Shown here piece by piece: positions 245-59,535 of a stretch of 64,000 nucleotides of DNA; the first letter of the stretch is position 1; every line of letters begins with the position of its first letter. The position numbers were made by a program, and so were the translations under genes. The notes beneath the pieces were generated by a model. The model saw only the letters and a program-made list of their open reading frames with translations. It was not told where the DNA came from and searched no databases. This stretch comes from an uncultured Planctomycetia bacterium (GTDB lineage Bacteria > Omnitrophota > Gorgyraeia > Pluralincolimonadales > Pluralincolimonadaceae), in the NCBI GenBank assembly GCA_964650515.1, contig CAZYUB010000006.1, forward strand, positions 13,858-77,857, written 5' to 3'.

Positions 245-246
245 GG

Positions 247-33312: not shown

Positions 33313-33341
33313 TTGACGGCCTTCCGTACGAGTAATACAAT
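33313..33341 (+). promoter_or_regulatory. Sigma70-like promoter, TTGACG-17-TACAAT.
   Basis: TTGACG at 33313-18 and TACAAT at 33336-41. An RBS GGAAGGAGAG lies upstream of the ATG at 33374. Confidence 0.5.
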
Positions 33342-33373: not shown

Positions 33374-33568
33374 ATGGACACAGGCACGAAGTACATAACT
33401 ATGGATGAGGTCACGAATTACTTAAGCCTCAGCGAGGGAAGTATCCGTAAGCTTATACGGGAACAGAGCTTTCCGCATGTTAAGGTCCTGAGAAAGTACC
33501 TGTTCAATAGGCAGGATATCGATGAGTGGCTTAAGATGCATTCGCAGGGCCTCAGGGCGAAAAAGTAG
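33374..33568 (+). CDS. Small HTH DNA-binding protein (excisionase/MerR-like HTH_17 family).
   Basis: 64 aa. ITMDEVTNYLSLSEGSIRKLIREQSFP is a helix-turn-helix. No adjacent integrase. Confidence 0.6.
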   Translation: MDTGTKYITMDEVTNYLSLSEGSIRKLIREQSFPHVKVLRKYLFNRQDIDEWLKMHSQGLRAKK

Positions 33569-33592: not shown

Positions 33593-36500
33593 ATGCTAAG
33601 CCAAAATTGCAGTAAATATGTTATATCCATATCTATCGCGCTCGCGATATCATTCCCTTCGATATCGTGTTCCGGCGGCGAGGAGTTAGATTACAATAAA
33701 CTTTCGCTTGAAGCCGCGCTGAACATTATGTATGAGATAGACCCCGAAATACAGTCAAGTAAACTTGCCGTAGATTCCGCCCATCTCGAGATAAGGGCGA
33801 GGAAACTTGATACGTTCCTCCCGAAGATAAGCGCGGGCGCCACGCTTGTAAAACCGGTAAACGTCTTCTCCTCGCTTGAGCAGCAAAAGGAGATGTTCTT
33901 TGAGCAGCAGCTCGTAATAGAATTCGCCGTTACTTCTGACAGCCTGAAACAAATTGCCAGGGAAAGGAAGAATTACGAAACAAGCATGCTCGAGCTGAAA
34001 CAGGACATATCTATCAAGAGCCGCAGGCTGATCGCCGTATATTACGCGGTCGCCAGGGCGCAGGAAAACTACAGGTCAAGCTGCGATAATGTCGAGACGA
34101 TCGAGAAATATTTAAAGGAAGTGGAGAACAGCAATGAATATTCGGAAGTGGAGAAGTTCGAACTGAAGAACTATCTCGGGGTAGTGATCGAGGAAAAATT
34201 GGGGGCGTTGAACACGCTTATCAATACGAGAAGGGACCTTCGCGGGCTTCTCGGGCTTGAGGACAGGGAAGACATCATAATAACGGTCGAGGAACTCCCG
34301 GATAACATAAACAAGGACGCGGCTTTTGCGGAAAACCCGTTCATCAGGCCGGTAGACTATACGATGGACATATACAAGAAAAGGGAGGAAGCGGCTGGCA
34401 TCGCCGCTCGTATCAGCGCGTCGCCCCTGTTGGGGCTTTCGTCCTCGACTATCTTCGGAATAGGCGAAGGTAAAGGGACGAAGTTCCAGAAGAAGGCGAT
34501 AACGGATACCCAGGTGGAATTATTCTTAACCGACTTCGGCTATACCGCGGGGTTGAATAATGCCGGAAGGATCGGGTCGCAGATAGCCCGGCTCGAGCTG
34601 CTGAAGGCCGAGGAGGACCTGGAATACGCGGACCGCATAACGAGCGATAAGCTCTCCGAGCTGAGCGCGCTTATAGATAATTACAGGGATTATATAACCA
34701 AGACCGAAGATACTTTCAGGATGTTCAAGGAGCGGCTGTCCCTGCCTGTTATCGAGATAATAAGGATGAACGATAACATATATAAAGCGAGGTACGCGCT
34801 GCAGCAGGCGCTCGTTGATTATACGGTCATGCTGTCCAAGCTTAACGGTGTCGAATTGAAGCCGGAGCAGTCGAGCCCGCAGTACCAGGATATGGGCCTT
34901 GAGGACCTTTTGGCAAGGGGAGAGAGGAGCGATATCCTTACCGCAAAGCGGGTAGCCGAAAATAAGCTCAGGATGGAGAACGTCAGGGTCAAGGCCATGA
35001 AGGCGGGATACCTGCCGAAGATAACCGGGGCCGCGGTGCTTGAGAACGCCAATATAGACGGCACGCCGTACACGAACACGAGGGCTTATCTCGCGCTCGA
35101 AGCCCGCCTTTTTAACGGTAAGACCGGCCAGGCAGTGAAGGCGGCAAAGGCAGGCGCGGAGGCGGCGGGATACGAGGGGGCCGCGTTACAGAACTATGTC
35201 GCGGACGAGATAATAAGGAATTACCTGGCGATATTAAGGAACAAGAACACCTTAAAGAGACTGGAAGAGATAAAGGAGATAAAGGCCGGCATTGTCGGGC
35301 GCATGATGGAGGAGGCGCAGGGCGTAAACCCGAAATACAGCAATTCGGACATACTCCCTCTTGTCCTCCAGCAGATGGAGCTCGACAGGGTCATGGCGGA
35401 TGTGGAGTTCTCGCTGGCGGTGGTCGAATACGACCTGAAGAGATGGACAGGCATACCGCTCAACGAAAATATAAGCGTGAAGGAGCTGCCGGGTTTCGGG
35501 ACAGACGAAGGCCTCTCGAAGTTCAAGGCGCTCATCAGCTCCAGGGTGGCGCCGTATTTCGACGGCAAGGCCCCGGTCAAACAGGCCTTCAGCGCGGTCG
35601 AGAAGAACAGGGCCGGGGAGGCGCAGGCCGTCGCGTACGAAGGCGCGCTCTTAAATGTGAAATACGAGACGAAGGGGGCGGATTATTACGGATGGAAGAA
35701 CCCGGACAAGCAGTTGTCTTTCAGCGTCTCCGTGCCGTGGGGCGACCGCCGGGAGCGGCTGGCACAGTCGGACGCTTCAAGGGCGCGCATCAGGTCCGAG
35801 ATAGAGTATATAAAAAGCATGGATGAGTATGAAAAGGAAAGGCTGGCCGTAAAGACCGCTTATGACGCTTCGAAGGAGCTTATCGAGAACCTGCGCAGCA
35901 AGATGGAGAACATGGAGTCGCAGTACCGCATAACGGACGAGCTTTACAGGTTCGGCGGCAGGACGCAGAGGCAGATGGTCGACGCGAAGCTGGATTATAC
36001 CGTGGCCTGCATGAGCTATGAGGAAGCGGTCCTTGACAACTATTACCATAACGCGAGGGAGATACTGATTGTAGAGAAGGACGCGGGGCCCGAAGGCGGC
36101 GAGAAGATACTTCTGTCAGGGCTGCAGGAAGCGATAGACATGGCGCTGGAGAACAGCCGGCAGGTCAGGAAATACGAAGAGTTGCTCGAACTGGAGAAGG
36201 AGACGCTCAAGTACTACAAGACGTTCAGGGTGAAAGGTGACATTATCGAGAAGTACTACAGGATAGACAATAAGGGTTGGGAAAAACAGAAGGACCTGCT
36301 TACGACAGGTGCCGTAACGACCGTTGAAGCGGACCTTGTGAATAAATTTATGAGCAAGAGGCAGCAGCGAAGGATCGAACTGGCGGAAAAGGACGTGGTC
36401 CAGGCGAAGTTCGACCTTACCCTGAAGGTCGCGGACGCGTATTCCGATTACCTCGGCTCCCTGGCCGAAGCGTCTGAAGTCGAGGCGGAATATGAAAAGC

Positions 36501-37408
36501 AGAAGACGGTCCTCGCGGAGATGGAAGAGCTGTTCAGGGCAAAGGCGATAGCGCATGTCGACCTCTTAAAGCAGAGGGAGTTCGTCGAGAGCATGTATCA
36601 GAAATATATAGACATCAACAGGTATACCGAAGGATACAGGAACAACCTCGGTATAGCGGTCGGAGGCCTCGATCCGCGGTTCTCGATAGTGAATACCGAG
36701 GTCTACGACAAGTCCGCCAAACGAGTCGCCCTTACCGGGGATTTTGAGATTAAGCAGAGGTTATTGGACGAGCTGACCGCGGCGAGGCAGTCGCTGCAGG
36801 GTCCGTTGACGGACGACCTGCTGGAACGCGCGGAAATCGATATAAGCATGGCCAGGCTCGATACCGAAGCCATATCAAAACAGATCAAGACGCTTGCGAT
36901 AAACCTCGAGTATAATTACCTTACCGATTATATGGGATTATTGACCAAGGATGAGGCCGCTTTCTCGCGTTATGATAACATGTCGGAATTTATCTCGCTG
37001 AACTCGATGGACAAGATATTTGATCCCGTGACCGGCACGAAAGCGAGAGTCGCCGCAATAAAGGAGAAGGTGGCGGCGTTGAGGTCTAAATCATACACGA
37101 AGGACGTGGTCCAGGACGCGTTGAGGAGGTTTACAGATTACCAGATAGCCGTTGCCGACTACGGGAACTACGAAAAGCACGAGTCGGCGCTGGAAAAAGA
37201 GATGTCAGAGAAGATGCGTATAGAAGAGGCGGCCGGAGAGACGGCCCTGATCAGGCAAAGGGAGCTGAAAGAGACGGTGCTTAACAACAAGATCAATAAG
37301 ATACAGGCGTTCTACCGCATGATGAAATTTATGAACGAGCTTGACCGTTATCTGATAAGATATACGTCAAAGGGGATAGAATCATACGTAACGTTCACGG
37401 ATAAATGA
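33593..37408 (+). CDS. Giant TolC-like outer-membrane efflux lipoprotein (1271 aa, internally duplicated OEP-like modules).
   Basis: Lipoprotein-type signal (…SFPSISCSG). An OEP N-terminal signature LSLEAALNIMYEIDPEIQ, and a second one at LSGLQEAIDMALENSRQVRK (~36110). Extended coiled-coil content. Confidence 0.6.
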   Translation: MLSQNCSKYVISISIALAISFPSISCSGGEELDYNKLSLEAALNIMYEIDPEIQSSKLAVDSAHLEIRARKLDTFLPKISAGATLVKPVNVFSSLEQQKEMFFEQQLVIEFAVTSDSLKQIARERKNYETSMLELKQDISIKSRRLIAVYYAVARAQENYRSSCDNVETIEKYLKEVENSNEYSEVEKFELKNYLGVVIEEKLGALNTLINTRRDLRGLLGLEDREDIIITVEELPDNINKDAAFAENPFIRPVDYTMDIYKKREEAAGIAARISASPLLGLSSSTIFGIGEGKGTKFQKKAITDTQVELFLTDFGYTAGLNNAGRIGSQIARLELLKAEEDLEYADRITSDKLSELSALIDNYRDYITKTEDTFRMFKERLSLPVIEIIRMNDNIYKARYALQQALVDYTVMLSKLNGVELKPEQSSPQYQDMGLEDLLARGERSDILTAKRVAENKLRMENVRVKAMKAGYLPKITGAAVLENANIDGTPYTNTRAYLALEARLFNGKTGQAVKAAKAGAEAAGYEGAALQNYVADEIIRNYLAILRNKNTLKRLEEIKEIKAGIVGRMMEEAQGVNPKYSNSDILPLVLQQMELDRVMADVEFSLAVVEYDLKRWTGIPLNENISVKELPGFGTDEGLSKFKALISSRVAPYFDGKAPVKQAFSAVEKNRAGEAQAVAYEGALLNVKYETKGADYYGWKNPDKQLSFSVSVPWGDRRERLAQSDASRARIRSEIEYIKSMDEYEKERLAVKTAYDASKELIENLRSKMENMESQYRITDELYRFGGRTQRQMVDAKLDYTVACMSYEEAVLDNYYHNAREILIVEKDAGPEGGEKILLSGLQEAIDMALENSRQVRKYEELLELEKETLKYYKTFRVKGDIIEKYYRIDNKGWEKQKDLLTTGAVTTVEADLVNKFMSKRQQRRIELAEKDVVQAKFDLTLKVADAYSDYLGSLAEASEVEAEYEKQKTVLAEMEELFRAKAIAHVDLLKQREFVESMYQKYIDINRYTEGYRNNLGIAVGGLDPRFSIVNTEVYDKSAKRVALTGDFEIKQRLLDELTAARQSLQGPLTDDLLERAEIDISMARLDTEAISKQIKTLAINLEYNYLTDYMGLLTKDEAAFSRYDNMSEFISLNSMDKIFDPVTGTKARVAAIKEKVAALRSKSYTKDVVQDALRRFTDYQIAVADYGNYEKHESALEKEMSEKMRIEEAAGETALIRQRELKETVLNNKINKIQAFYRMMKFMNELDRYLIRYTSKGIESYVTFTDK

Positions 37409-40400
37409 GCGGGGACATGTTAATAAGAGCAAGAAAGATATTTGTCATACTCATAGCGGCGGCGGCCGTCCTTTTCACGGCGCGTTCATGTGTGCGCCGT
37501 CTCCCGGATGCGGATGACGCAGCCGGCAAGCAGCGGCCCGCTGCAGCCGATGCCGCGCGCGCCGGGAACCCTCTCGACCATCCGGCGCAGAGAGATACCG
37601 CGATAAACGCGGGTGAGCTCGTATCCTTCATCCTGGAATGGTCGAACCCTGAGACCGGCCTCGTCCCGACAATGATATCGAAGAGCGGCACGAAGAACCC
37701 TTTCGCGGACATGACCTACTCTTACGCGCAGGCGGTCGCCCACCAGAATCTCTTGATGGCCGGGCAAACGGACATTTCCTTGAAAGCCGCGGAAGTGTTA
37801 AGGCAGAGAGGCGAGGCGCGCGACATCCCGAACGGGCTTAATACGCGCACCGGGTTAAGCGAGGACCCCCTGATAACAGCCGGGCCGAACGCGTACTGGG
37901 GCATAAGTTTCATCAGGGAGTACAGGTTGGCAGGCGACGAGAAGTGGCTGGTTGCAGCTAAGCGGCGCGCGGATTTCCTGCTGAAACTGCAGGCGGATAA
38001 CGGCGGCATACGCAAGAGCCCTTACCAGGGCAATATAGAATACGAGGCGAAATCCACCGAGGAGAACCTCGATTGTTACGCGCTGTTCGACCTGCTGTCG
38101 CAGCTCACGGGTGAGGAGAAGTACGCCACGGCAAGATCAAGGATACTCGGCTGGCTCTCCGCGAGCGGTGTGTACAACAAGGATGCGGGGTATTTTACGG
38201 CCGGCACATCCAAGGACGCCGTGAATCCCATTTATGCTACCGACGCGAACGCGCTCGCAATAATCATACTCGGCCCTGAGCTGCTCGATTCCGAAGGCGA
38301 GGTCCGGTTCGGCGGGGCCGGAACAAGCCGCAGGATATTGGACAGCCTTGATGCGGCCAGGGTGAAAGTGGATTATCTCCACCCGTCCGGCATCACTGTA
38401 AAAGACCTAGAAGGGTTCGATTTTACCGATAAGCTCGGCAGGCCCGGCAGGAAACCCGTCCTGAGCCCCGAGTTCACTTCCCAGGCGGTGCTGGCATATC
38501 TGGTGATGGCGAGGCATGCGAAAGAAAAAGGCGATGTCGAATATTCGGCCAAGCTTATAGAAGACGCGCGCCGTTATCTCGATAACCTCGGAAGGATGGC
38601 AGCGCGCACAGGGAAGTCGGCGTCCCTGCCTTATGCCTCGGAGAAAGGGATAAGGCGTTATCCCTTCGACAACTGGCTGACGCCTCAGGGAGACGCGGAT
38701 ATATCGGCGACATGGGCGTCGTTCCCGCTGTCGGGGTTCAACCCGTTTGCGCTTGAAGGGTTCGGGCTGCGAGATGCGATGAAGGATTCCGCGGAATGGA
38801 TGTCCGATACAGGCGAAGCCATAAAGCCGGAAAAATCTTTTGTTGTCCCCGAACCGGAGAAGATCGTGTCGGAAGCCGAGCTCATCGCCCAGCAGGAAGC
38901 GGCAAGGGAAGAGGCGATGAGGAAGCCGATCGTGTATTATAAGGTCCTTTACGACCAGGTCAATAAGGACGCGACTATCGCGAGAAGGAGGGTGATAGCC
39001 GTCCTGATGACAAGCTACAATTGCTGGTTCGACGGCGTGCTGGATACGGCGTCGCGGGACTATGACGTGATCGGCGTCGACGGAAATTACAAGGTCTTCT
39101 ATAAGAGATTCCAGGACCTTCCCGAAGCTACGAGGAAGGCCGTGCAATCGGAATATTCCTATCTTGACGAGTCTACGGGTATCAAATGGAGGATGGCCCC
39201 TAAGTACAATTTGAGCCTCGACGGGCAGTATAAGCCGTATTACGCCTTCGAGATGGACGGCGATTACAACATAATCAGGCAGTTCGCGTCCGAGAGCGAC
39301 GTCCCTGAAGAGAACAGGGCCGACCTGAAGAACGTAAAAGCCCAGTTCCAGTCCTCCAGCGGCCTTCCCGAAGGCCACCTCATAGCGAGGTATTTCACCG
39401 CGCTCGAGGTGGACAGCGAGATGAATATAATGGACTATTACGAAGCGATAGACGACCTTCCGGGCCTCGTCTCCAAAGTCCCGATTAGCGAAGATGAGTT
39501 CAGGAGGTATACCAAGGCGAAGGACTGGGAGAGGCAGGACCTGGTCTCCGCCGGCATCATCCCCGATGAAAAAGGCCTGCTTGCCGTCCAGGAGAGAGGC
39601 ATATATTATGCAAAGGTCCTCGGCCTCGATGAGACAAGGAGGCTGCGCGTAGGCGGCGTCTCCGTAGCCAGCGGACGCGAGATAATCATGGGAACCAGGT
39701 TCAGCCTGACGAACTGGCGCATCGGGGAGGCATCGAAGACGAACGCCGTCAAATATGAAATAGGGCTCATAAAGGGCATGGTCATAAAGCCGCGCGAACA
39801 GTTCAGCGGAAGCGGCCCATCGCCGACACAGCCGCTTTGGATATACCTCGGGGAAGACATGATCGCCTCAGAGACCGCGGAATTCAAGAGGAGGCTCCTG
39901 GACCTGCTGAAGCGCATCAAATCGGAGAAGGACGCGCAGACGCGCCTAGAGCTCGTGGAACAATACGACCGGCTGGCCGGAGAGCTCGCCTGGTACGACG
40001 AGAACGGGCTCATTCATGTCATCTATTACGGCGCAAAAGCCGCCGAGAAGAGGTTCGGGGATTTCGCATCTGCGAAGGCAAGGGCGGAGAACAGCCTGAG
40101 GACCTACGAATCGATCCTGGGCAGGGACCAGCTCGGGCGGGACCTGCGCGATTCATACGGGCGCGTCTGGCTTAAGGTAATAAACGAGGCGACCGGCCGC
40201 ATATTATACGTCGAAGTCTATGATATGGCGGGAAACCTCGAGACGATATATTCCGGGGAGATCGATATCGACCCGCTCACTAAAGAGGTCAGGTCCGAAA
40301 TAAGGACCGACCTCGAATACGACAAGGATACCCTGCAGGTCGTCGGCAGCCACACATACCGCACCGATGAGAACGGGGACTGGGTCTCCGACATATCCGA

Positions 40401-43400
40401 GAGCATATTCAAGGGGTATACGCCCGACAAGAAGTATTTCGTTTCGGAGGTGCATATATTCGAGAGGGGCGAGGACGGCAGGATAATATTCGAGGACGGG
40501 AAAGCCAGGTATACGAAGAAGATAGAATATTACACGCCGGAAGGCGATATATCGGCCCAGATGGTGAAGAACATAATAACTATAGTCAGGTACGGCGCCA
40601 ACCGTGAGGTCGTGAAAGAGGTCTTCCTCGAGCGGCCGGGCAAGACCCTGACAGGGGAGAACACGGACCTCGATAACCTGACGCAGGGCCTTGCGTGGGT
40701 CCGCAGGTACAAGACGACAGGCAAGATATTGACCTTCAAGGACGCGCTCGTGAAGTCCCTGACATCGCTGCCCGAAGAAGACAGGGAAACGACCGCGTTG
40801 CTGATATTGAACAGGCTCGGCGCGGAGAAGGTAGGCAGGATCAGCGATACGCTTATGCTGGAAGAGAACGAGGTCACGAACAACCTTACCGGCGACCCGG
40901 CCGCGCCCGGAGAGGCGCCCTATTTCGTGTTCTACGAACCGGGCGACAGTTTGGGCCGGCAAAGGCTCATAGTGCGCGGCGGCACGATGGAGGTCCCCGT
41001 CGACTGGATACCCGAGGCCGATATACCTTCGAAGACGCTCACGTTCAACCTTGCCGGCGAGCTGGTCTCGATAAGCGACGTCGACAGCTCTGTCCGAGCG
41101 GATTCAGTACTGCCTCCCGGATACATAGAGAGGGTGGCGCCGCTCGGCATCAACGCCGATACGTTGCTGCCCCAGATGAAGAAGAGGATATTCAGGATGG
41201 TGACCGGCGATGACGGCCTGCCGCATTTCACGAATACGGTGGCCATTACGACGGTCAGCTACATGATACCCGACGACGTGCTCGGCAGGGAGCTCCTGAA
41301 CGTCAAGTTCGTCATGCTCGGGGACGAGACGACGCTCCACAACGGCAGCACGCTTAAGCTCAAGCGCAATATATTCGGCAAGGACACGCTTATCGAGTCG
41401 TGGAAGGACGAGAGGGGCGAGGCCCGCACCCGGGCAATAGCTAAGAAAGAGGATACCGTAGTATATGAATGGTATAAGGAGGGCCTCGACGCCGGCGAGC
41501 TGCGCGAGCGCCTGAAGTCCGAATGCGGCAAGCTCGTGAAACGCGAAATACTGGAGGAGGCGCTCGTGAACGTCGCGGAGTCGCCGTTCGGCACGATGCC
41601 GGGCTACCACGTGATAAAGCCGAACGGGCGTATAGGCGAGATCAAGTATTTCTCCGGCACCGTCGAATACCCGCGCAGCGTCTTCAGCCATGCCGGGGTA
41701 AAGGTGCCTTATGAATCGGAAGCGCCGCCGTTCAAGCTCCCGGACGGGCCCGCGATAAGAGGAGTGAAATACGGCGTGTTGAACTCAGATTACGCGTTCT
41801 ACGACGTGCATTCGCTCAGCGGTCAGCTGATAGTACTCGAACGCCGTTTCATAATCCTGCGCCTCATGAACATACTGCCGGTGCAGGGCGGCAGGCAGAC
41901 GGAATATTATGACCCGCTCGTCCCGTATTCATACCTGAGGCCGATAAAGATAGAAAGGGATTTCAGGCCCGGCACTCAACCCGAGGGCACGCAGCCGGGC
42001 ACCCAGATCGTCGCGGTCTTCATCGGCGACGCGAGCATCTACCATCGTAACGGGTGGCAGACCCAGACGTTCCTCGAGAGGAGGCCGTTCGATATAGAGC
42101 ACTGGATACGCTCTGATTACGAGTTCGACGATAACGGCGTATATAAGTTCAAGAAAGAGCATATCGAAAGCAGCTCGATATACCTTATGAGGTCTATCGA
42201 ATGGCAGAAGCCGCTCGCGTTCTTCGCGCTTGTGGCAGGACTCTTCTTCCTTGCCGGCTATGTCTCGCGCAGGAGGCTTAGGGCCGGAAGGGAATCCAGG
42301 ATCAACGCCGCATGCGCGGCCTCAAGGCCGTTCAGCAGGGAAATGCTCGCGCGGCTCTCAGTGCCCGAAGAGCTGAAAGCCGCATGCATAAAGGTATATG
42401 AAGGGCGTGAGCCGGCATCGGGGCTCTTCGCCGCATCCGAAAAGGTCTTCAGGCCAAGGATCGAGGAATGCCTGCGCGGTTTCGGGGCCGACCCGGCCGA
42501 GCATACGGCGAGCGTTAACGTCCTGCTGGACAGGATCGCGTGCCGTCTCGGCAGGGAGGAGATAAATTTAAGCAACCTGTTTGCGGCCGAAGCGAAAGAG
42601 TTCGTGGAATGGTCGAAGAGGAACGGTCATTCCGTCAGCATCGCCGCGGGCAAGACCGGAACGGATGACCTGTCGTTAATAGTCCTGTTCAGGCTTGTAT
42701 TCGACGAGTCGATGGAATTCAGGGCAGCCGTTACCGGCTTCAGGTATTATCTCTTCGATAAGTCGCTCGTCCTGCTCGCCGCGGGCAGGAAAGGCGATAT
42801 ACTGCGCGAGATACGCGGCGATACTCTCGCTTTCCTCGAGGCACTGAGGCCCGGTTATGACAAGAAACTGGGGCTAATAAAGGAATATATTTTTACATAT
42901 GACGACATGAACGAGCTTTTTGAGGGCAAGAGGCCCGGGTTCATCGCCTCATTTGCCCGGCTGGAGGGAAAGACCGCCGCGCAGAAACTCTCCTGGCTCG
43001 CGTCGAAGGCGGGCAAGGATGCCGCCGCCGACGTGATGTCATATAAGAGCTACGCATGGCTTAAGACGTTCCCCGATAAGGCCGGCGTCCCGCAGTTCGT
43101 CTCAAACCTTAGGCGTTTCTGGGGATTCCTCGTGCCTATGTTCGCGGCCGTGACTTTGGGCGGTGTCGCTATAGCGCTGAAACGCATACCGTTCGCCCAA
43201 CGCCTCGAAGGCGCGATGGGACCTGTAGGGGCCGCATTCGTCGAGGTAACGGCCCTAATACTCATAGGCCTTGTCATAACAATGGCTTTCATGAAAGGCA
43301 CCTTAGGCGATTACAAGCCGGCGCCGAAGGGCGCGGCAGGGAATAAGGAGCTCAGGCGGTCGATACGGCTGTTCTGGATAATGTACGGCTCGGCCTCTTA

Positions 43401-46400
43401 CCTCTGGGGCCTCTTCAGCATATTCGTGATAATCTGGACCGTCAGGATCATAAGCAAGCTCACGTTCGTGAACGCCGGATGGGGCCTGTTCATCAACGCG
43501 AGCGCGCTGCTGCTTACGTTCACGTTCATACTGTCGAGCTTCTTCTCGCTCTTCTATATCATAATAGCGTTGATAGGGTTCTACCGCGGCAAGAGGGAAG
43601 GCGTAGGCCAGGTCATATCATGGATCCAGATGAGGAGGAAGTTCGAGGCCTCAAAGCGTCGTTTTGGGCAGGTCATCGCGCCGGCCGAAACGCTATGGAG
43701 GTCATATTGGAATCTGATGATAAAAGAGCTTTACGATTATTATGTCATCAGCGCTCCGGAGAGGGATGCCCTCTCGTATTCCGAGAAAAATACAGCGCCG
43801 AAACTCGAGGGGCTACCGCGCGCAGATGAGGCCTCCGAAAGGATGCGCCTCTATGTCAACAGCTGGCTCATGGAGATGCCGAAGGCGTGCTCCTGGAACG
43901 ACCTGCCGACGTTCACTGCGATGGTGACGGCGTTCAATGAACCGGTCAGCTTCTCGTTCGATGAGCTCAACGGCTGCGACAGGGGCGCCGAAGTCACGAG
44001 GCTCAACCACCTGATCGGGTTCTACAGGCCGCAGTGGGAAGAGTTCGTCGGCCGGCTCGATACCGCCGACCTCGGGCAGTATATCACGAGGGAGCAACTG
44101 AAGCTGCTCTTCGGCCTGAAGAAACTGCCCGAAGGGTTGCCGGAACAGCTGAAGGAGAAGATCAGGAAATGGGCAAACCTCACGGTCCAGTGCGTCGAGA
44201 AAACGGCCGTGGAGGTATACAGGATACGCGATGCCTTTGCCGCCTATGCCGGGGCGTGCTATCCCGGCGCGTCCGCCGCGGACATAGAGGAGCTCGTATC
44301 CCGCAAGGTCCAGATACTGCTTAATTACGAGGGGTTCCACAGCCCTGCGACCCGCGATTACGACAGGGAGTCCCTGAAGAGGCTCATGAAAGAGCTTCCG
44401 CGGTTGGATGTCTATTGGGCGGCGGCAGAGGGCGACGATAAGGGCCTCGACCGCGGGCTCCACCGCTATAACCCGGCGACGGACGGCATCGAGCTTATAG
44501 AGACCGCGCCGTTCACCGCTACGGTAAAGAAAGGCAAGCCGAGCGGCCTGAACCAGGCGCTGCCGTTCGTGAAGGGCGAGACGGTCCTCTTCTTCGACGC
44601 GAACTGCTCGGTCAGGATAGAGGATGCCCTGAAACTTCCCGTCGCGCTTTCCGAGTTCGCGGACGACCCGTCGCTCGGAGAGGTCCTGTTCGCCGAGTAC
44701 ATATTCAACAAGAACTATTCATGGATCTCGCAGGCGATAGGTTTCAACGAGGAGACATTCGTCTCGGTAACGCAGAGGACGTTGAATATCTTCCAGGCCT
44801 GCGGTTTTTACGGCCACAGCGCGATAATAAAGACGGACATGATCACCGCGGCCTGCGGCCTGCCGCAGGATTATATATCCGAGGATATACTGCTGGCCAC
44901 GGCATTGTGGAAGAAGGGGCTGAAGACCTCGCATAAGGAATACCTGACTTTCGGCAAGGGCAGGGAGACATCGTATTTTACGAGTTTAGTGCCGCTGACG
45001 AAATGGGCAATGGGCTCCTCCGACGCCGCGATAGGCCGCGTCATGCGCGGCATACTCGACTCGCGGAATATCCATGTCGCGCAGAAGTTCATGCTGATGT
45101 TCGGGTTCTCGTTCTTCTACCAGACCCCGCTGATGTTCGTGATAAATTTCCTTTACCTGTGGCTTATGATCTGCTGGGGCATAAACGGTTTCATGGCGGT
45201 CCCGTACCCGATCGTCTTCGGCATCCTCGGCCTGCTCTTCAACCAGGCGATAACAGCTACCGGCGTCGCGTATCTCGTGGAGCATTACGGCTTCAGGAGG
45301 TCCTTCTCCGCATACATGAAGCTTGTCGCGAAGAACCACTTCTTCTACGCGTCGGTCATACCCGCGTACGCGTTCGGTTTCCTCGCGGGCCTGAAGGGAA
45401 AGGCGGTCTTCATCATAAGCCCGAAGGGATGGAACCTCGGCCACCTGCCCCTGAAAGTAATATGGGGGGAGAAGAGGGCAATACTGAAGGCGGCATTATT
45501 CAGCACGATGGTGGGCCTCCCGCTTGCGTACCTGCTTGTGTCGGCCGAGATGGTCCCTTTATGGATAAGCCCGTTCATACCGTTCCTGCCGTTCGCCGTC
45601 GTGGCGGCGATGTACGCGGCGGGCCTCGAATGGAAAAAGACGGGCTTGGGTTTCCTGAAGGACTGGCGCGACGAGATCGTCCCCGACGGGGATATCCGCA
45701 AGATGTCCGTGATAAAACTGCAGATGATCTACGCGATGGTGCTGCTCGTCTTCACAGGGGTCGGCTTCGTCATGTGGGGCCTCATATTCTCGTCGCTGGC
45801 GGTCAAGGCGCTGTTCATATTCTCGGTCCTTTATATAAGCACGACGATGTCGTTCATAATAATGCCGCTCTTTGCGCATTCCCAGCCGGTCGCGCTGTTC
45901 AAGGAGATAACGATATCGAAGTTCTGGAATTATGCGGCGATACCGGCGCTGTTCGCGAGCATCGTTTTCGGCGCTGCCTCTATCTTATCGAGCCCGGCTA
46001 CGGCTTCGCCCGAATCGGTCGTCTATACGCTTCTCGGCATATCGTTGCTTGTCGGATGGGCGCTGCTTAAATGGAAACTCAGCGGGTACGCGAGGCTTGA
46101 CAGGTGGCTAAAGCAGAACCTGGCCGGGTACGCCGGCGCGCCCGCGTACCGTAAAGCAGACCTGATGGATGACGTATACTTCGCGCACCAGGAGCTGATA
46201 CAGGGCGACAGGCAGGAGGAGTTGAGATATAAAAGGAAAGCCGGGAAGGCCAAGGCGGTGTTCGTGTTCACGCTGTCTGCCGCGCTGCTGATGTATTTCG
46301 CGTCGGAATTCTACCCGAGGTTATTCAGAAACTGGATATGGCTCCTGATAGCGGCCGAGGCGGTCTATTTGCTGATACTCAACGTCGAGCACACGAAAGA

Positions 46401-46629
46401 CGACAGGATATACCTCGGCAAGCTCTACGGCGGGATAATTATAAATGACTTCAACAGGCTCAACGAAAATGTCAGGGCCATGGAAGATATCTGGAAGAAA
46501 CTGGACAGGGTATACAAGGCCAGGCTCGTCAGGATCTACGAGGACGAATTAAGGGCCAAGAGGGCGATGACCGTTTACATGTCCAGGTGCATCAGGTCTT
46601 GGGAGGCGGGGCAGCAGAGGCCTACCTAG
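37405..46629 (+). CDS. Giant (3074 aa) multi-domain membrane polysaccharide synthase-like protein. It combines an N-terminal (alpha/alpha)6 glycosidase-like domain, a long central region, and a C-terminal polytopic GT2-type processive glycosyltransferase core.
   Basis: The start overlaps the TolC-like stop (ATGA). GT2 motifs: KPSGLNQALPFVKGETVLFFDAN (K-G-LN-AL…FDAD-like, ~44533), ISEDILLATALWKKGLK (TED-like, ~44876), and LTKWAMG (degenerate QxxRW, ~44995). Over 20 predicted TM helices flank the core. Confidence 0.6.
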   Translation: MSGDMLIRARKIFVILIAAAAVLFTARSCVRRLPDADDAAGKQRPAAADAARAGNPLDHPAQRDTAINAGELVSFILEWSNPETGLVPTMISKSGTKNPFADMTYSYAQAVAHQNLLMAGQTDISLKAAEVLRQRGEARDIPNGLNTRTGLSEDPLITAGPNAYWGISFIREYRLAGDEKWLVAAKRRADFLLKLQADNGGIRKSPYQGNIEYEAKSTEENLDCYALFDLLSQLTGEEKYATARSRILGWLSASGVYNKDAGYFTAGTSKDAVNPIYATDANALAIIILGPELLDSEGEVRFGGAGTSRRILDSLDAARVKVDYLHPSGITVKDLEGFDFTDKLGRPGRKPVLSPEFTSQAVLAYLVMARHAKEKGDVEYSAKLIEDARRYLDNLGRMAARTGKSASLPYASEKGIRRYPFDNWLTPQGDADISATWASFPLSGFNPFALEGFGLRDAMKDSAEWMSDTGEAIKPEKSFVVPEPEKIVSEAELIAQQEAAREEAMRKPIVYYKVLYDQVNKDATIARRRVIAVLMTSYNCWFDGVLDTASRDYDVIGVDGNYKVFYKRFQDLPEATRKAVQSEYSYLDESTGIKWRMAPKYNLSLDGQYKPYYAFEMDGDYNIIRQFASESDVPEENRADLKNVKAQFQSSSGLPEGHLIARYFTALEVDSEMNIMDYYEAIDDLPGLVSKVPISEDEFRRYTKAKDWERQDLVSAGIIPDEKGLLAVQERGIYYAKVLGLDETRRLRVGGVSVASGREIIMGTRFSLTNWRIGEASKTNAVKYEIGLIKGMVIKPREQFSGSGPSPTQPLWIYLGEDMIASETAEFKRRLLDLLKRIKSEKDAQTRLELVEQYDRLAGELAWYDENGLIHVIYYGAKAAEKRFGDFASAKARAENSLRTYESILGRDQLGRDLRDSYGRVWLKVINEATGRILYVEVYDMAGNLETIYSGEIDIDPLTKEVRSEIRTDLEYDKDTLQVVGSHTYRTDENGDWVSDISESIFKGYTPDKKYFVSEVHIFERGEDGRIIFEDGKARYTKKIEYYTPEGDISAQMVKNIITIVRYGANREVVKEVFLERPGKTLTGENTDLDNLTQGLAWVRRYKTTGKILTFKDALVKSLTSLPEEDRETTALLILNRLGAEKVGRISDTLMLEENEVTNNLTGDPAAPGEAPYFVFYEPGDSLGRQRLIVRGGTMEVPVDWIPEADIPSKTLTFNLAGELVSISDVDSSVRADSVLPPGYIERVAPLGINADTLLPQMKKRIFRMVTGDDGLPHFTNTVAITTVSYMIPDDVLGRELLNVKFVMLGDETTLHNGSTLKLKRNIFGKDTLIESWKDERGEARTRAIAKKEDTVVYEWYKEGLDAGELRERLKSECGKLVKREILEEALVNVAESPFGTMPGYHVIKPNGRIGEIKYFSGTVEYPRSVFSHAGVKVPYESEAPPFKLPDGPAIRGVKYGVLNSDYAFYDVHSLSGQLIVLERRFIILRLMNILPVQGGRQTEYYDPLVPYSYLRPIKIERDFRPGTQPEGTQPGTQIVAVFIGDASIYHRNGWQTQTFLERRPFDIEHWIRSDYEFDDNGVYKFKKEHIESSSIYLMRSIEWQKPLAFFALVAGLFFLAGYVSRRRLRAGRESRINAACAASRPFSREMLARLSVPEELKAACIKVYEGREPASGLFAASEKVFRPRIEECLRGFGADPAEHTASVNVLLDRIACRLGREEINLSNLFAAEAKEFVEWSKRNGHSVSIAAGKTGTDDLSLIVLFRLVFDESMEFRAAVTGFRYYLFDKSLVLLAAGRKGDILREIRGDTLAFLEALRPGYDKKLGLIKEYIFTYDDMNELFEGKRPGFIASFARLEGKTAAQKLSWLASKAGKDAAADVMSYKSYAWLKTFPDKAGVPQFVSNLRRFWGFLVPMFAAVTLGGVAIALKRIPFAQRLEGAMGPVGAAFVEVTALILIGLVITMAFMKGTLGDYKPAPKGAAGNKELRRSIRLFWIMYGSASYLWGLFSIFVIIWTVRIISKLTFVNAGWGLFINASALLLTFTFILSSFFSLFYIIIALIGFYRGKREGVGQVISWIQMRRKFEASKRRFGQVIAPAETLWRSYWNLMIKELYDYYVISAPERDALSYSEKNTAPKLEGLPRADEASERMRLYVNSWLMEMPKACSWNDLPTFTAMVTAFNEPVSFSFDELNGCDRGAEVTRLNHLIGFYRPQWEEFVGRLDTADLGQYITREQLKLLFGLKKLPEGLPEQLKEKIRKWANLTVQCVEKTAVEVYRIRDAFAAYAGACYPGASAADIEELVSRKVQILLNYEGFHSPATRDYDRESLKRLMKELPRLDVYWAAAEGDDKGLDRGLHRYNPATDGIELIETAPFTATVKKGKPSGLNQALPFVKGETVLFFDANCSVRIEDALKLPVALSEFADDPSLGEVLFAEYIFNKNYSWISQAIGFNEETFVSVTQRTLNIFQACGFYGHSAIIKTDMITAACGLPQDYISEDILLATALWKKGLKTSHKEYLTFGKGRETSYFTSLVPLTKWAMGSSDAAIGRVMRGILDSRNIHVAQKFMLMFGFSFFYQTPLMFVINFLYLWLMICWGINGFMAVPYPIVFGILGLLFNQAITATGVAYLVEHYGFRRSFSAYMKLVAKNHFFYASVIPAYAFGFLAGLKGKAVFIISPKGWNLGHLPLKVIWGEKRAILKAALFSTMVGLPLAYLLVSAEMVPLWISPFIPFLPFAVVAAMYAAGLEWKKTGLGFLKDWRDEIVPDGDIRKMSVIKLQMIYAMVLLVFTGVGFVMWGLIFSSLAVKALFIFSVLYISTTMSFIIMPLFAHSQPVALFKEITISKFWNYAAIPALFASIVFGAASILSSPATASPESVVYTLLGISLLVGWALLKWKLSGYARLDRWLKQNLAGYAGAPAYRKADLMDDVYFAHQELIQGDRQEELRYKRKAGKAKAVFVFTLSAALLMYFASEFYPRLFRNWIWLLIAAEAVYLLILNVEHTKDDRIYLGKLYGGIIINDFNRLNENVRAMEDIWKKLDRVYKARLVRIYEDELRAKRAMTVYMSRCIRSWEAGQQRPT

Positions 46630-48001
46630 TATTGTAGCTTTCCTTCAAAACTTCGTGGTAGTAGAGCCAATCGTCGCTTACCTTCTTCATCGCGCTGTAG
46701 AGGTTCCTGTAATCGTCGTAGATATCGCATTCGAACTCGATATTACGCCTTCCGCTCAGGAAGTGCGCGAAGAGCTTGTAGTTCATCTCCTTGCGCAGGA
46801 AGTTCTTCTTCTTCAGCGCATAGAAGAGGGAGCCGCTGCCTTCGAAGCAGTTCATTATCCTTACCCATTCGCAGGCGATGAATATGCAGTTCTTATAGCT
46901 GCCGAAGAGGTCGACCGTGTCGCAGTCGATGAAGACGCATGATTCGAGCTTGCTCGACGGTTTTATCTTCTTGCTCCTGACGAAATAGTTGCCGTTCTCG
47001 TCCGGCTTGGATATCTGCGCGGTCAATTTGCGCAGCAGCTCGAGGTAGGTCATTATGTTCGAAGCCCAGTCGATCCAGTAGCCCTTGGCGATGGCGCCGC
47101 CGACGCTGATCTCGTATTGCTGGAGGCATTCCCTCATCGCGAGCTGTATCTTCGACAGTGCCTTCTTCTCGAGGACGAGCGACTCGCAGATGAGCTTGTT
47201 GAAGCTCCATTCGGTCGCGTTCAGGTGTGAGATGAAGTCCTTGTTCTTCTCCTTGGAGCAGAAGAGGTCGACAGCGCTCTGCATCTTATCCAGGTTCTCT
47301 TTTGTCGTGAAGAGCTGGAACGTATTCGCGAGCGTCATGCCTTTTGAATACTTCGGTATCAGTTTTTCATCGAAGGTCTTCTCGTAAAACGACGATATGC
47401 GGTTATCCGCGTCTATCTTCGCCGTGCCGAGGCTTCCAAGGGCCCTATTCACCTGTATCGGGGTCAGCAGCATGGAAGCGGAGTGTGAGTTGAGCGATTT
47501 CAGCAGTCCGTTTATGTCCACATCGGCATAATCGAAGCACTGGTCGATCGGAAGTATGATGACCGTATTTTTCAAGAGGGGGATGCTCTTCGCGATGCAC
47601 GGGAGAAGCATGTCCGGCGCGCGGCCCTCGGGGAACCTTATGCTCGCCTTTGAAGGCGTGCCGAACTCGTAGGAGAGGGGGAATATCCTCGTGGCGAGGC
47701 CGGCGTCGTGGATATATATTATGGTGTCGAAGGAATCGAGCTTCTTTTTGGAAAGAAGCTTCTTTATGCGCTCGTGTGTCTTCAGGTAGCCGGTAAGGTT
47801 GCCGCGGGTCTGGCCCATCTCGGCCATCCCGACAAGCTCGACGTCTATAGTCTTATTATAACGCTCCCTGAGCTTCTTCTTGAAGAGCTGCTTGAGGTCG
47901 AGCGAGAATTCAAGCTTATCGTAAGAGTTCAGGACGAGCAGGACCCTGTCCGCGACCTCATTTTTTACGCTTAAGTTCTCCAACGGAGCCGTTTTAGCCA
48001 T
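46622..48001 (-). CDS. Sugar-1-phosphate nucleotidyltransferase-like protein (459 aa). Convergent with the giant gene, overlapping it by 8 bp.
   Basis: HDAGLATRIFPLS…KASIRFPEG…MLLPCI resembles the GxGTRxxPxT nucleotidyltransferase signature. Lys-rich, with somewhat lower GC than the neighbours. Confidence 0.5.
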   Translation of the reverse strand: MAKTAPLENLSVKNEVADRVLLVLNSYDKLEFSLDLKQLFKKKLRERYNKTIDVELVGMAEMGQTRGNLTGYLKTHERIKKLLSKKKLDSFDTIIYIHDAGLATRIFPLSYEFGTPSKASIRFPEGRAPDMLLPCIAKSIPLLKNTVIILPIDQCFDYADVDINGLLKSLNSHSASMLLTPIQVNRALGSLGTAKIDADNRISSFYEKTFDEKLIPKYSKGMTLANTFQLFTTKENLDKMQSAVDLFCSKEKNKDFISHLNATEWSFNKLICESLVLEKKALSKIQLAMRECLQQYEISVGGAIAKGYWIDWASNIMTYLELLRKLTAQISKPDENGNYFVRSKKIKPSSKLESCVFIDCDTVDLFGSYKNCIFIACEWVRIMNCFEGSGSLFYALKKKNFLRKEMNYKLFAHFLSGRRNIEFECDIYDDYRNLYSAMKKVSDDWLYYHEVLKESYNTR

Positions 48002-58674: not shown

Positions 58675-58684
58675 ATCACAGGAT

Positions 58685-59117: not shown

Positions 59118-59138
59118 AATAATTTTCAGGAGAAGGAA

Positions 59139-59510: not shown

Positions 59511-59535
59511 ACCTACGGGAGACGCGGCGCGGCAT

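What the first reader, a model, noticed from the sequence alone, without database searches (positions are those of the whole stretch)
37405..46629. Single polypeptide combining a glycosidase-like (alpha/alpha)6 domain with a processive glycan synthase
The N-terminal ~400 aa are rich in W, Y and acidic residues. They have a helix-hairpin pattern typical of six-hairpin glycoside hydrolases or epimerases (e.g. NAYWGISFIREYRLAGDEKWLVAAKRRADFLLKLQADNGG). The C-terminus carries the GT2 catalytic core. Fusing a hydrolase-like and a synthase domain recalls cyclic beta-1,2-glucan synthase (GT84+GH94). Here the domain order and the GT family differ, and the middle ~1100 aa have no features I recognise.
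Basis: inference. Interest (0 to 1): 0.8.

Follow-up and report, generated by a model that had tools for sequence, protein, structure and literature searches.

The report
Bacterial FKS-type glucan synthase export machine
A 3,074-residue membrane protein of an uncultured Omnitrophota bacterium joins a complete homologue of the fungal/plant beta-1,3-glucan synthase (family GT48, so far studied only in eukaryotes) to a 1,600-residue periplasmic arm that begins with a six-hairpin glycosidase-like barrel, and it sits in a conserved gene cluster with a TolC-like outer-membrane duct, which looks like a new type of bacterial polysaccharide export machine.

The parts
37405..46629 (+). Giant ORF of 3,074 aa: a periplasmic arm plus an FKS/GT48-like synthase core
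   Evidence: ORF listing and translation. 13 full-length orthologues were aligned.
37420..37488 (+). N-terminal hydrophobic segment (aa ~6-28), a signal anchor or signal peptide, preceded by basic residues
   Evidence: Kyte-Doolittle scan, peak 2.08. Inferred orientation: N-terminus in, following region out.
37606..38814 (+). (alpha/alpha)6 barrel, GH76-like fold without the GH76 Asp-Asp pair (aa ~68-470). E219, N221, D280, D339 and E356 are conserved even in distant paralogues.
38860..42210 (+). Unassigned periplasmic region (aa 486-1602). It is mostly beta-strand in a low-confidence model, with a weak ~60-80 aa tandem repeat (hhalign self-match at about aa 546-686, with a short third copy to aa 686).
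   Evidence: No Pfam or PDB sequence hit. AF2 pLDDT 54. hhalign self-comparison E 0.002.
42211..42267 (+). TM2 (aa 1603-1621), followed by RRRLRAGRESR, returning the chain to the cytoplasm
   Evidence: Hydropathy and the positive-inside rule.
42442..43122 (+). Cytoplasmic domain homologous to the FKS1 accessory (AC) domain (aa ~1680-1906), including YDDMNELF, which aligns with the fungal YDDxNExF motif
   Evidence: hhalign against the fungal FKS pre-GT region: probability 97.9%, E 3.7e-13.
43123..43581 (+). TM cluster before the GT domain (aa 1907-2059; four hydrophobic stretches, two of them long)
   Evidence: Hydropathy. Aligned to the FKS TM1-6 region.
43801..45087 (+). GT48-like GT-A catalytic domain (aa 2133-2561). 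Motifs: F2177/E2179, GKPSGLNQ 2377-2384, DAN 2398-2400, YGH 2469-2471, ED 2493-2494, GKGRE 2517-2521.
   Evidence: PF02364 at E 1.3e-23, FKS1 alignment, invariance, FKS1 residue roles.
45088..46386 (+). C-terminal TM bundle (aa 2562-2994, roughly 8-10 helices), the presumed glycan channel
   Evidence: Hydropathy. The local TMb HMM is shared with many GT48-like hits.
46387..46626 (+). 80-aa basic cytoplasmic tail with no family match
33593..37408 (+). 1,271-aa TolC-family protein with about six OEP repeats in one chain. Its stop codon overlaps the start of the giant gene (ATGA). It is conserved directly upstream in distant orthologous loci.
   Evidence: Pfam OEP on the whole protein and on five of six ~211-aa pieces. 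Synteny. Junction sequence.
33374..33568 (+). 64-aa HTH_17 DNA-binding protein between a promoter-like site (33313-33341) and the OEP gene
   Evidence: Pfam E 1.2e-11, promoter scan.
30482..32059 (+). dCache-HAMP-GGDEF diguanylate cyclase. A 44%-identical copy lies next to the orthologous giant gene in L001.
32041..33273 (+). Exported MORN-variant repeat protein (410 aa). It follows the GGDEF gene here and also in L001 (36% identity).
46622..48001 (-). 459-aa cytoplasmic protein with a weak GlgC/NTP-transferase-like signature (HDAGLATRIFPL). It is convergent with the giant gene, and a 51%-identical copy lies in the L001 cluster.
   Evidence: TIGR02091 at E 8e-4, far below its cutoff

Best explanation
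The gene encodes the inner-membrane engine of a synthase-dependent polysaccharide secretion system built on an FKS/callose-synthase (GT48-type) core.

Shown:
- Residues ~1603-3074 are homologous to the whole eukaryotic FKS core: accessory domain, TM helices, a GT-A domain with DAN/ED/GKGRE motifs, and a C-terminal TM bundle.
- Residues ~68-470 form an (alpha/alpha)6 barrel.
- The gene is conserved in Omnitrophota and linked to a six-repeat TolC-family gene, a diguanylate cyclase, a MORN-repeat protein and a weakly GlgC-like protein.

Inferred:
- The cytoplasmic GT domain polymerises an NDP-glucose (most likely UDP-Glc) into a beta-glucan, most likely beta-1,3. This step is probably metal-independent, as in FKS1, because of the DAN motif. 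The growing chain is threaded through the protein's own TM channel.
- The chain emerges under the 1,575-residue periplasmic arm, which is tethered by TM1 and TM2. The arm guides the chain across the periplasm. Its barrel binds, trims or transglycosylates the chain, playing the role of BcsZ or AlgL but fused to the synthase.
- The translationally coupled single-chain TolC-like protein provides the duct through the outer membrane.
- The neighbouring sensor diguanylate cyclase suggests c-di-GMP control, but no receptor site was identified.
For: - GT48 assignment: PF02364 scores 83.7 bits against a cutoff of 37.2. The best PDB sequences are yeast FKS1/GSC2 at E 1e-10, ahead of BcsA at 5e-6.
- The FKS1 catalytic set described in PMC12715860 maps to E2179, K2378, D2398-A-N2400 and E2493-D2494. 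These residues are invariant in the 13-sequence alignment of the window protein and 12 orthologues. K, DxN, YGH, ED and KxR are also invariant across 15 divergent bacterial members.
- The pre-GT region aligns to the fungal AC domain plus TM1-6 at 97.9% probability.
- Topology: TM1 at 6-24, a soluble stretch at 25-1602, TM2 followed by RRRLR, and an even number of TM stretches before the GT domain.
- Barrel fold. The barrel recurs next to GT48-like domains in eight other giant proteins, with E219/N221/D280/D339/E356 conserved.
- Operon and synteny: ATGA overlap with the OEP gene. OEP6 lies directly upstream in L001/L002 and L003. The five-gene set is conserved but reordered between the window and L001.
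- Five of six ~211-aa segments of the partner each match the OEP profile.
- Weak support for a glucose polymer: a GlgC-like neighbour, a GH16 gene in the L003 neighbourhood and a PGM/PMM gene in the L001 neighbourhood.
Against: - No activity, product or localisation data exist. Linkage specificity cannot be read from sequence, and the window protein is only about 25% identical to FKS1.
- The residue aligned with FKS1 N1085 is Gly2381. An Asn lies two positions later.
- The barrel lacks the GH76 catalytic pair, so it may be non-catalytic.
- The middle 1,100 aa could not be modelled (pLDDT 54).
- No PilZ or other c-di-GMP receptor domain was detected in the protein.
- TolC-family proteins are not known exporters of synthase-made polysaccharides, and no membrane-fusion protein is in the cluster.
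- Topology rests on hydropathy and the positive-inside rule only.
- The GlgC-like match is far below its family cutoff, and the GH16 and PGM genes are not part of the conserved core.
Confidence: 0.6

Rival explanations
1. Same machine, different polymer. The GT48-like core makes something other than beta-1,3-glucan, for example a mannan or another hexosan that fits the GH76/MmpH-like barrel, or a beta-1,4 or mixed-linkage glucan.
For: The nearest barrel relatives by sequence and fold act on alpha-mannans. The window protein belongs to the bacterial group most distant from the eukaryotic enzymes. The residue aligned with FKS1 N1085 differs.
Against: From general knowledge of the family, every characterised GT48 enzyme makes beta-1,3-glucan. 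The DAN, ED and UDP-Glc-binding K/E residues are kept. The barrel has lost the mannanase catalytic pair. The conserved neighbour resembles a glucose-1-phosphate nucleotidyltransferase, though weakly.
Confidence: 0.2
2. A surface or predation apparatus rather than a matrix exporter. The periplasmic or extracellular arm is the functional part (adhesion to, or attack on, a host cell). The FKS-like core serves mainly as an anchor, or deposits glycan locally at a contact site. This would fit the giant surface proteins proposed for predatory or host-dependent Omnitrophota.
For: GT48-like cores are attached to very different giant extensions of up to 7,886 aa, some annotated LysM or DUF6531. Giant Omnitrophota proteins have been linked to predation (10.1101/2023.11.21.568195). 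Foldseek hits of the low-confidence middle model are to Rhs/teneurin shells.
Against: The catalytic motifs are invariant, so the enzyme is under selection. The arm lies between two TM segments and is predicted to be periplasmic, not surface-exposed. The Rhs-like hits have TM-scores of about 0.07 and no sequence support. The giant-gene papers do not mention this family.
Confidence: 0.12
3. One reading: a GT2 synthase fused to a glycoside hydrolase, analogous to cyclic beta-1,2-glucan synthase, with both domains acting on the same cytoplasmic chain, for example to cyclise or size it.
For: There is weak GT2 similarity (PF13632 at 26.4 bits; BcsA at E 5e-6). An (alpha/alpha)6 domain is present.
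Against: GT48 scores far higher than GT2, and homology covers the FKS accessory domain. No GT84 or GH94 signal was found. The barrel and the GT domain are predicted to lie on opposite sides of the membrane.
Confidence: 0.05
4. An artefact: a chimeric assembly, a fused gene call or a decaying pseudogene.
For: None, beyond the unusual length.
Against: The same architecture occurs in 13 full-length orthologues from independent assemblies, with every region conserved. GC content matches the neighbours. The gene is embedded among housekeeping genes.
Confidence: 0.01

Closest known systems
Fungal FKS1/GSC2 and plant/protist callose synthases (CAZy GT48)
   Same: Homologous over the whole core: AC-like cytoplasmic domain, TM helices, a GT-A domain inserted between TM clusters, and a C-terminal TM bundle. 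It shares the DAN motif (in place of DxD), the ED motif, the GK...N/Q loop, YGH and GKGR(D/E).
   Different: Bacterial origin, about 25% identity, and a 1,600-aa N-terminal periplasmic extension that FKS lacks. There are four predicted hydrophobic stretches (two of them long) before the GT domain rather than six TM helices. There is no Rho1-type regulator; the gene is linked instead to a diguanylate cyclase and an outer-membrane protein.
Bacterial cellulose synthase complex BcsA-BcsB-BcsZ-BcsC (synthase-dependent secretion)
   Different: The catalytic family is GT48-like, not GT2. No PilZ domain was detected. The periplasmic modules are fused N-terminally to the synthase. The outer-membrane partner belongs to the TolC family rather than being a BcsC-type TPR plus 16-strand barrel.
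Curdlan synthase CrdS (bacterial beta-1,3-glucan, GT2)
   Same: It would make the same kind of polymer in a diderm bacterium.
   Different: A different GT family and architecture. CrdS is a small GT2 protein without periplasmic fusions (from general knowledge; not tested here).
Cyclic beta-1,2-glucan synthase Cgs (GT84 + (alpha/alpha)6 cyclisation domain + GH94)
   Same: A giant polypeptide that combines a glycan synthase with an (alpha/alpha)6 domain.
   Different: No GT84 or GH94 similarity. All Cgs domains are cytoplasmic, whereas here the barrel is predicted to be periplasmic.
GH76 alpha-1,6-mannanases and MmpH
   Different: Pfam GH76 scores below its cutoff (21.8 against 25.9 bits). The adjacent catalytic aspartates align to an invariant Gly160-Pro161.
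TolC-family outer membrane factors
   Same: The upstream partner is built from OEP repeats.
   Different: It has about six repeats in a single 1,271-1,350-aa chain, instead of two per protomer in a trimer. It is coupled to a glycan synthase rather than to an ABC, RND or MFS pump with a membrane-fusion protein.

Membership tests
GT48 (FKS/callose synthase, Pfam Glucan_synthase PF02364) | Family profile match above the curated threshold | tested here: met
   83.7 bits against a cutoff of 37.2, E 1.3e-23, aa 2138-2587. The best solved-structure sequences are FKS1/GSC2.
GT48 (FKS/callose synthase, Pfam Glucan_synthase PF02364) | DAN motif replacing the GT-A DxD motif, plus the catalytic ED motif | tested here: met
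   D2398-A2399-N2400 and E2493-D2494 align to FKS1 D1102-A-N1104 and E1221-D1222. They are invariant in orthologues and in 15 divergent members.
GT48 (FKS/callose synthase, Pfam Glucan_synthase PF02364) | UDP-Glc-binding residues (FKS1 Y849, E851, K1082, N1085) | tested here: inconclusive
   F2177 (Y in some orthologues), E2179 and K2378 are conserved. The position aligned with N1085 is G2381, with N2383 and Q2384 close by.
GT48 (FKS/callose synthase, Pfam Glucan_synthase PF02364) | Core architecture: cytosolic accessory domain, TM helices, GT domain inserted between TM clusters, and a C-terminal TM bundle | tested here: met
   hhalign of aa ~1680-2137 against the fungal AC domain plus TM1-6 gives 97.9% probability and E 3.7e-13. 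Hydropathy map. The three-dimensional structure was not modelled.
GT48 (FKS/callose synthase, Pfam Glucan_synthase PF02364) | Synthesis of beta-1,3-glucan from UDP-glucose | not testable with these tools
   Requires a biochemical assay.
GT2 processive synthases (BcsA/CesA/Chs type) | GT2 family profile above threshold, and D,D,D,QxxRW motifs | tested here: not met
   PF13632 scores 26.4 bits (cutoff 27). TIGR03030 CelA scores 17.6 bits (cutoff 699). The QxxRW position reads GKGRE, and DxD reads DAN. The fold-level kinship of GT48 and GT2 is known.
GH76 alpha-1,6-mannanase | (alpha/alpha)6 barrel fold | tested here: met
GH76 alpha-1,6-mannanase | Family profile above the curated threshold | tested here: not met
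   PF03663 scores 21.8 bits against a cutoff of 25.9, matching aa 162-270 only.
GH76 alpha-1,6-mannanase | Two adjacent catalytic aspartates (BcGH76 D124/D125; ShGH76 D136/D137, three to four residues before a conserved Trp) | tested here: not met
   The HMMER alignment puts BcGH76 MWW opposite A163-Y164-W165, so the pair falls on G160-P161. These are invariant in orthologues, and the position is non-acidic in distant paralogous barrels. The definition of the pair comes from PMC9213526. The last three residues are extrapolated without a structural superposition.
Cyclic beta-1,2-glucan synthase (Cgs) type | GT84 synthase domain and GH94 phosphorylase domain | tested here: not met
   Neither appears in the Pfam or NCBIfam scans of the whole protein.
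Synthase-dependent exopolysaccharide secretion systems | Processive inner-membrane synthase, periplasmic glycanase-like component and outer-membrane partner encoded together | tested here: met
   Domain map. OEP6 is coupled directly upstream and syntenic in three distant loci.
Synthase-dependent exopolysaccharide secretion systems | c-di-GMP receptor on or next to the synthase (PilZ, I-site or similar) | tested here: not met
   No PilZ or other receptor domain was detected in the protein. Only a linked GGDEF cyclase was found. A PilZ protein lies about 6 kb away in L001, outside the conserved set.
TolC family (for the upstream partner) | OEP repeats; the canonical form has two repeats per ~450-aa protomer | tested here: inconclusive
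   OEP repeats are present: 68.5 bits for the whole protein, and hits in five of six sixths. They are arranged as about six in one chain. Whether one chain forms a whole barrel was not modelled.

The most novel reading that the evidence does not exclude
GT48 is not a eukaryotic invention. Under this reading, Omnitrophota hold a deep and much more diverse radiation of FKS-type synthases, and the eukaryotic fungal, plant and protist enzymes are one offshoot of it (or the two share an ancient transfer). In bacteria the FKS core would work as the inner-membrane motor of a previously unrecognised trans-envelope glycan secretion system. The periplasmic conduit would be fused to the synthase, and the outer-membrane duct would be a single-chain, six-repeat TolC.
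Probability: 0.3. Interest if true: 0.9.

Novelty: new variant of a known kind. Interest (0 to 1): 0.78.

Why it matters
FKS/callose synthases build fungal walls and plant callose and are the target of echinocandin antifungals. They are treated in the literature I could search as eukaryotic enzymes: none of the papers I opened or searched describes a bacterial member.

A bacterial lineage with hundreds of divergent FKS-type proteins would:
- give an evolutionary context, and possibly an origin, for eukaryotic beta-1,3-glucan synthesis;
- offer prokaryotic, intron-free, Rho1-independent models for the structure and mechanism of the GT48 core;
- add a new architecture to bacterial polysaccharide secretion, with a synthase fused to its periplasmic arm and paired with a TolC-like duct;
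- suggest what part of the unexplained giant-protein repertoire of the poorly understood, often host-dependent Omnitrophota may be doing;
- correct current database names for these proteins ('GH76 protein', 'GT2 protein').

Tried and rejected
- A 15-sequence alignment of divergent GT domains (A4) was too diverse for the genome scan. A narrower one (A5) had to be used, so the scan sees only the window's subgroup. The taxonomic range of the wider family rests on 30 cluster look-ups.
- The N-barrel profile search of the 5.8-billion-protein set returned only two fragments of the same family. A search with an 88-aa GH76 segment returned nothing. The Asp-Asp test therefore rests on the HMMER alignment plus the literature.
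- The AF2 model of the middle region was poor (pLDDT 54, pTM 0.37). Its Foldseek hits to Rhs/teneurin shells have TM-scores of 0.05-0.08. A YD-like motif count is not above shuffles (2 observed against 0.6 expected; 113 of 1,000 shuffles reach it), and Pfam sees no RHS repeat. I therefore rejected an Rhs/YD-shell assignment; it remains only a lead.
- Self-BLAST and hhalign self-comparison did not show the repeats in the OEP partner. Scanning six equal pieces against Pfam did.
- The profile of the 459-aa neighbour found nothing in the PDB. Only weak GlgC/NTP-transferase signals exist.
- I considered eukaryotic contamination and rejected it: the flanking genes are bacterial housekeeping genes.
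- I considered a mobile-element origin and rejected it: GC content is uniform and there are no integrase or transposase genes nearby.
- The NJ tree cannot be rooted without GT2 outgroups, so I make no claim about the direction of any bacterium-eukaryote transfer.

Full report
**1. The observation**

Window 37405-46629 (+) is one uninterrupted ORF of 3,074 codons. It is not a chance frame. A search of 5.8 billion proteins found fourteen close relatives, thirteen of them full length (3,035-3,136 aa, 43-90% identity) and one truncated. All those that carry a name are from Candidatus Omnitrophota MAGs. An alignment of the window protein with twelve of them is conserved from end to end, with mean column identity 65% and invariant residues in every region. 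The quoted motif is at residue 162.

The window is core chromosome. It carries EF-G, RuvAB, QueA/Tgt, SecDF, RecJ, RecG, the PlsX-Fab genes, ACAD-ETF, DnaG and RpoD, and its GC content is uniform. In the GT domain the window is 96% identical to an Omnitrophota MAG labelled Go_SlDig.

**2. The C-terminal half is an FKS/callose-synthase (GT48) homologue, not an ordinary GT2**

- Pfam gives Glucan_synthase PF02364 at 83.7 bits (cutoff 37.2; aa 2138-2587). The GT2 model PF13632 reaches 26.4 bits, just under its cutoff.
- NCBIfam sees only a trace of CelA.
- Against all PDB sequences, the best matches are yeast FKS1 and GSC2 (E 1e-10, aa 2133-2545 against FKS1 805-1273), ahead of BcsA (5e-6).
- A recent review (PMC12715860) lists the FKS1 catalytic set: Y849/E851/K1082/N1085 for UDP-Glc, the family-specific DAN motif D1102-A-N1104 that replaces DxD, and the ED motif E1221-D1222. 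In the alignment these fall on F2177/E2179/K2378/(G2381, with N2383 two residues on), D2398-A2399-N2400 and E2493-D2494. FKS1 GKGRD aligns to GKGRE 2517-2521. All are invariant among orthologues.
- K, DxN, YGH, ED and KxR are the only invariant catalytic-region residues across 15 bacterial members that share as little as 24% identity.

Homology is not limited to the GT domain. A profile of aa ~1680-2137 aligns to the region that precedes the GT domain in fungal FKS proteins (accessory domain plus TM1-6) with 97.9% probability and E 3.7e-13. The alignment includes YDDMNELF opposite the fungal YDDxNExF. Residues ~1603-3074 are therefore a complete FKS-type core.

**3. The N-terminal domain**

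At sequence level the only relatives are GH76 mannanases: a profile match at E 2.4e-7 over 88 residues and Pfam GH76 below its cutoff. GH76 is defined by two adjacent catalytic aspartates, D124/D125 in BcGH76 and D136/D137 in ShGH76, a few residues before a conserved Trp (PMC9213526). Extending the HMMER alignment by three residues places that pair on Gly160-Pro161. These are invariant in orthologues, and the position is non-acidic in distant paralogous copies of the barrel. The domain is therefore GH76-like in fold but fails the defining catalytic test.

A different set, E219, N221, D280, D339 and E356, is conserved even in barrels from proteins that otherwise share almost nothing with this one. 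This is compatible with a different active site or with a glycan-binding groove. Which of the two applies is unknown.

**4. The middle region and the topology**

Residues 486-1602 match nothing in Pfam or in PDB sequences. The AF2 model is poor (pLDDT 54) and mostly beta-strand. Its Foldseek hits to Rhs/teneurin shells have TM-scores of about 0.07 and no sequence support, so I treat them only as a lead.

Hydropathy gives the following map:
- a basic N-terminus followed by TM1 (aa 6-24);
- a 1,578-residue soluble stretch;
- TM2 (aa 1603-1621), followed by RRRLRAGRESR;
- a 285-residue soluble domain;
- four hydrophobic stretches;
- the ~500-residue GT domain;
- roughly 8-10 further TM helices and an 80-residue basic tail.

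The positive-inside rule and the known cytosolic location of the FKS AC and GT domains agree on one topology. The barrel and the unknown region are periplasmic, and the FKS-like core is cytoplasmic/membrane. This is an inference, not a measurement.

**5. Gene neighbourhood**

The stop codon of the upstream gene (33593-37408) overlaps the start of the giant gene (ATGA). That 1,271-aa protein is made of OEP (TolC-family) repeats. The whole protein scores 68.5 bits. When it is cut into six ~211-aa pieces, five of them match nearly the whole OEP profile (E 1.7e-6, 1.4e-3, 7.2e-7, 1.5e-5, 0.024). Canonical TolC has two repeats per protomer and three protomers per channel. Six repeats in one chain therefore suggest a single-chain channel, which is an inference.

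A 1,274-1,350-aa orthologue lies immediately upstream of the giant gene in two loci whose synthases are only 43-44% identical to the window's. In L001 the same five genes occur in a different order: the giant gene, OEP6, a dCache-HAMP-GGDEF cyclase (44% identity), a MORN-variant repeat protein (36%) and a 459-aa protein (51%). Conserved linkage despite rearrangement argues that they work together.

The 459-aa protein carries a degenerate sugar-phosphate nucleotidyltransferase loop (HDAGLATRIFPL). It has only weak GlgC/NTP-transferase matches: TIGR02091 at E 8e-4 and PF00483 at E 0.06. Its role as donor supplier is therefore tentative. A promoter-like site (33313-33341) and a small HTH_17 gene precede the OEP gene.

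**6. The wider family**

An exhaustive HMMER scan of 1.84 billion cluster representatives with the GT-domain profile found 803 proteins at E <= 1e-3 and 107 at E <= 1e-30. Many are 2,000-7,886 aa long. Local HMMs show the same TM-GT-TM core attached to very different extensions. The barrel recurs in eight other giants, once C-terminal to the GT domain.

In the 30 clusters I looked up, every bacterial name was Candidatus Omnitrophota except one labelled Elusimicrobiota. The others that could be placed were oomycete, amoebozoan and glaucophyte glucan or callose synthases. A scan of GTDB representative genomes with a narrower profile found 13 loci: eight named Omnitrophota, the rest MAGs labelled Planctomycetia, Elusimicrobia or 'uncultured bacterium'.

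With yeast FKS1 as probe, some Omnitrophota members (P0029, P0030) are 30-31% identical at E 1e-55 to 1e-61. They are closer to FKS1 than the window protein is.

In a neighbour-joining tree of 126 GT domains:
- the fungal and plant-type sequences form a clade (98% bootstrap; 76% when the group holding the glaucophyte and amoebozoan sequences, plus three metagenomic proteins of unknown origin, is added);
- the window belongs to a bacterial group separated from 'other bacteria plus eukaryotes' in 100% of replicates.

The tree is unrooted, so the direction of any transfer is open.

**7. Mechanism proposed**

Shown: the homology, motifs, fold, conservation and gene linkage described above.

Inferred:
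- The cytoplasmic GT48-type domain polymerises an NDP-glucose, most likely UDP-Glc, into a beta-glucan, most likely beta-1,3. This step is probably metal-independent, given the DAN motif. The chain is passed through the protein's own TM channel.
- The chain emerges beneath the fused periplasmic arm. The arm guides it, and the barrel binds, trims or transglycosylates it. This is the job done by the separate proteins BcsB and BcsZ in cellulose secretion.
- The coupled six-repeat TolC-like protein carries the chain through the outer membrane.
- The sensor diguanylate cyclase points to c-di-GMP control, but no receptor domain was found.

I put 0.6 on this general model and somewhat less on beta-1,3 linkage specifically.

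**8. Comparison and novelty**

In what it works like, this is a synthase-dependent secretion system. In family membership, the core passes the sequence-based tests for GT48, apart from one ambiguous UDP-Glc contact; activity is untestable here. It fails the GT2 thresholds, it fails the catalytic test for GH76, and it has nothing of Cgs.

Full-text searches for GT48 or PF02364 together with bacteria, prokaryotes or Omnitrophota found no description of such proteins. The two Omnitrophota giant-protein papers do not mention them. Databases already tag the Pfam domain on these proteins, and CAZy may list a few bacterial GT48 entries, which I could not check. I therefore rate this as a new variant of a known kind rather than categorically new.

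Noticed in passing
window 33593-37408 (+); also L001 5919-9971 and L003 6173-9997: The TolC-family partner appears to hold about six OEP repeats in one 1,271-1,350-aa chain, which equals three fused TolC protomers. This suggests a single-chain outer-membrane channel. I know of no described example.
   Followed up: partly
proteins P0015-P0161; e.g. P0060 (7,886 aa), P0025 (6,932 aa), P0051 (2,179 aa): About 800 cluster representatives carry the GT48-like core. Many are giant Omnitrophota proteins with unrelated extensions, some annotated LysM, DUF6531 or FAD-oxidoreductase. In P0051 the (alpha/alpha)6 barrel lies C-terminal to the GT domain instead of N-terminal.
   Followed up: partly
L003 3673-4590 (+): A GH16 gene (laminarinase type, with a weak SKN1/KRE6 match) lies about 5.4 kb upstream of the orthologous giant gene in one distant locus. 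This fits a beta-glucan product, but the gene is not part of the conserved gene set.
   Followed up: no
L001 25352-26686 (-) and 22214-23614 (-): A PilZ-domain protein and a phosphoglucomutase/phosphomannomutase lie a few kb downstream of the orthologous cluster in L001. They are absent from the window's neighbourhood.
   Followed up: no
window 38860-42210 (aa 486-1602 of the giant protein): The low-confidence AF2 model of the middle region draws Foldseek hits to Rhs/teneurin YD shells (E down to 4e-7, but TM-scores ~0.07). A weak ~60-80 aa tandem repeat sits at about aa 546-686 (hhalign E 0.002).
   Followed up: partly
window 32041-33273 (+): An exported protein built from about 14 near-identical ~24-aa MORN-variant repeats (consensus roughly CAKGSxxGFYESGKLQYATL). 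It always follows the GGDEF gene. Its function is unknown.
   Followed up: no
window 61-1323 (+) and 1325-4387 (+): Two consecutive ORFs of 420 and 1,020 aa at the start of the window have no Pfam match at E <= 1e-5.
   Followed up: no
whole window: Nearly all long ORFs lie on the + strand. That strand shows persistent positive GC skew, and positive AT skew in most intervals, across the 64 kb, which suggests one replichore with strong gene-strand bias.
   Followed up: no
database names of orthologues: Annotation is inconsistent. Orthologues are named 'glycoside hydrolase family 76 protein', 'glycosyltransferase family 2 protein' or 'hypothetical'. Some host MAGs are labelled Planctomycetia, Elusimicrobia or Dehalococcoidales although the gene is otherwise seen in Omnitrophota. 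This may reflect mis-binning or old taxonomy.
   Followed up: no
window 58671-60008 (-) versus 59479-60636 (+): Two long ORFs on opposite strands overlap. The minus-strand ORF (445 aa) has no Pfam match. Which of the two is the real gene was not resolved.
   Followed up: no
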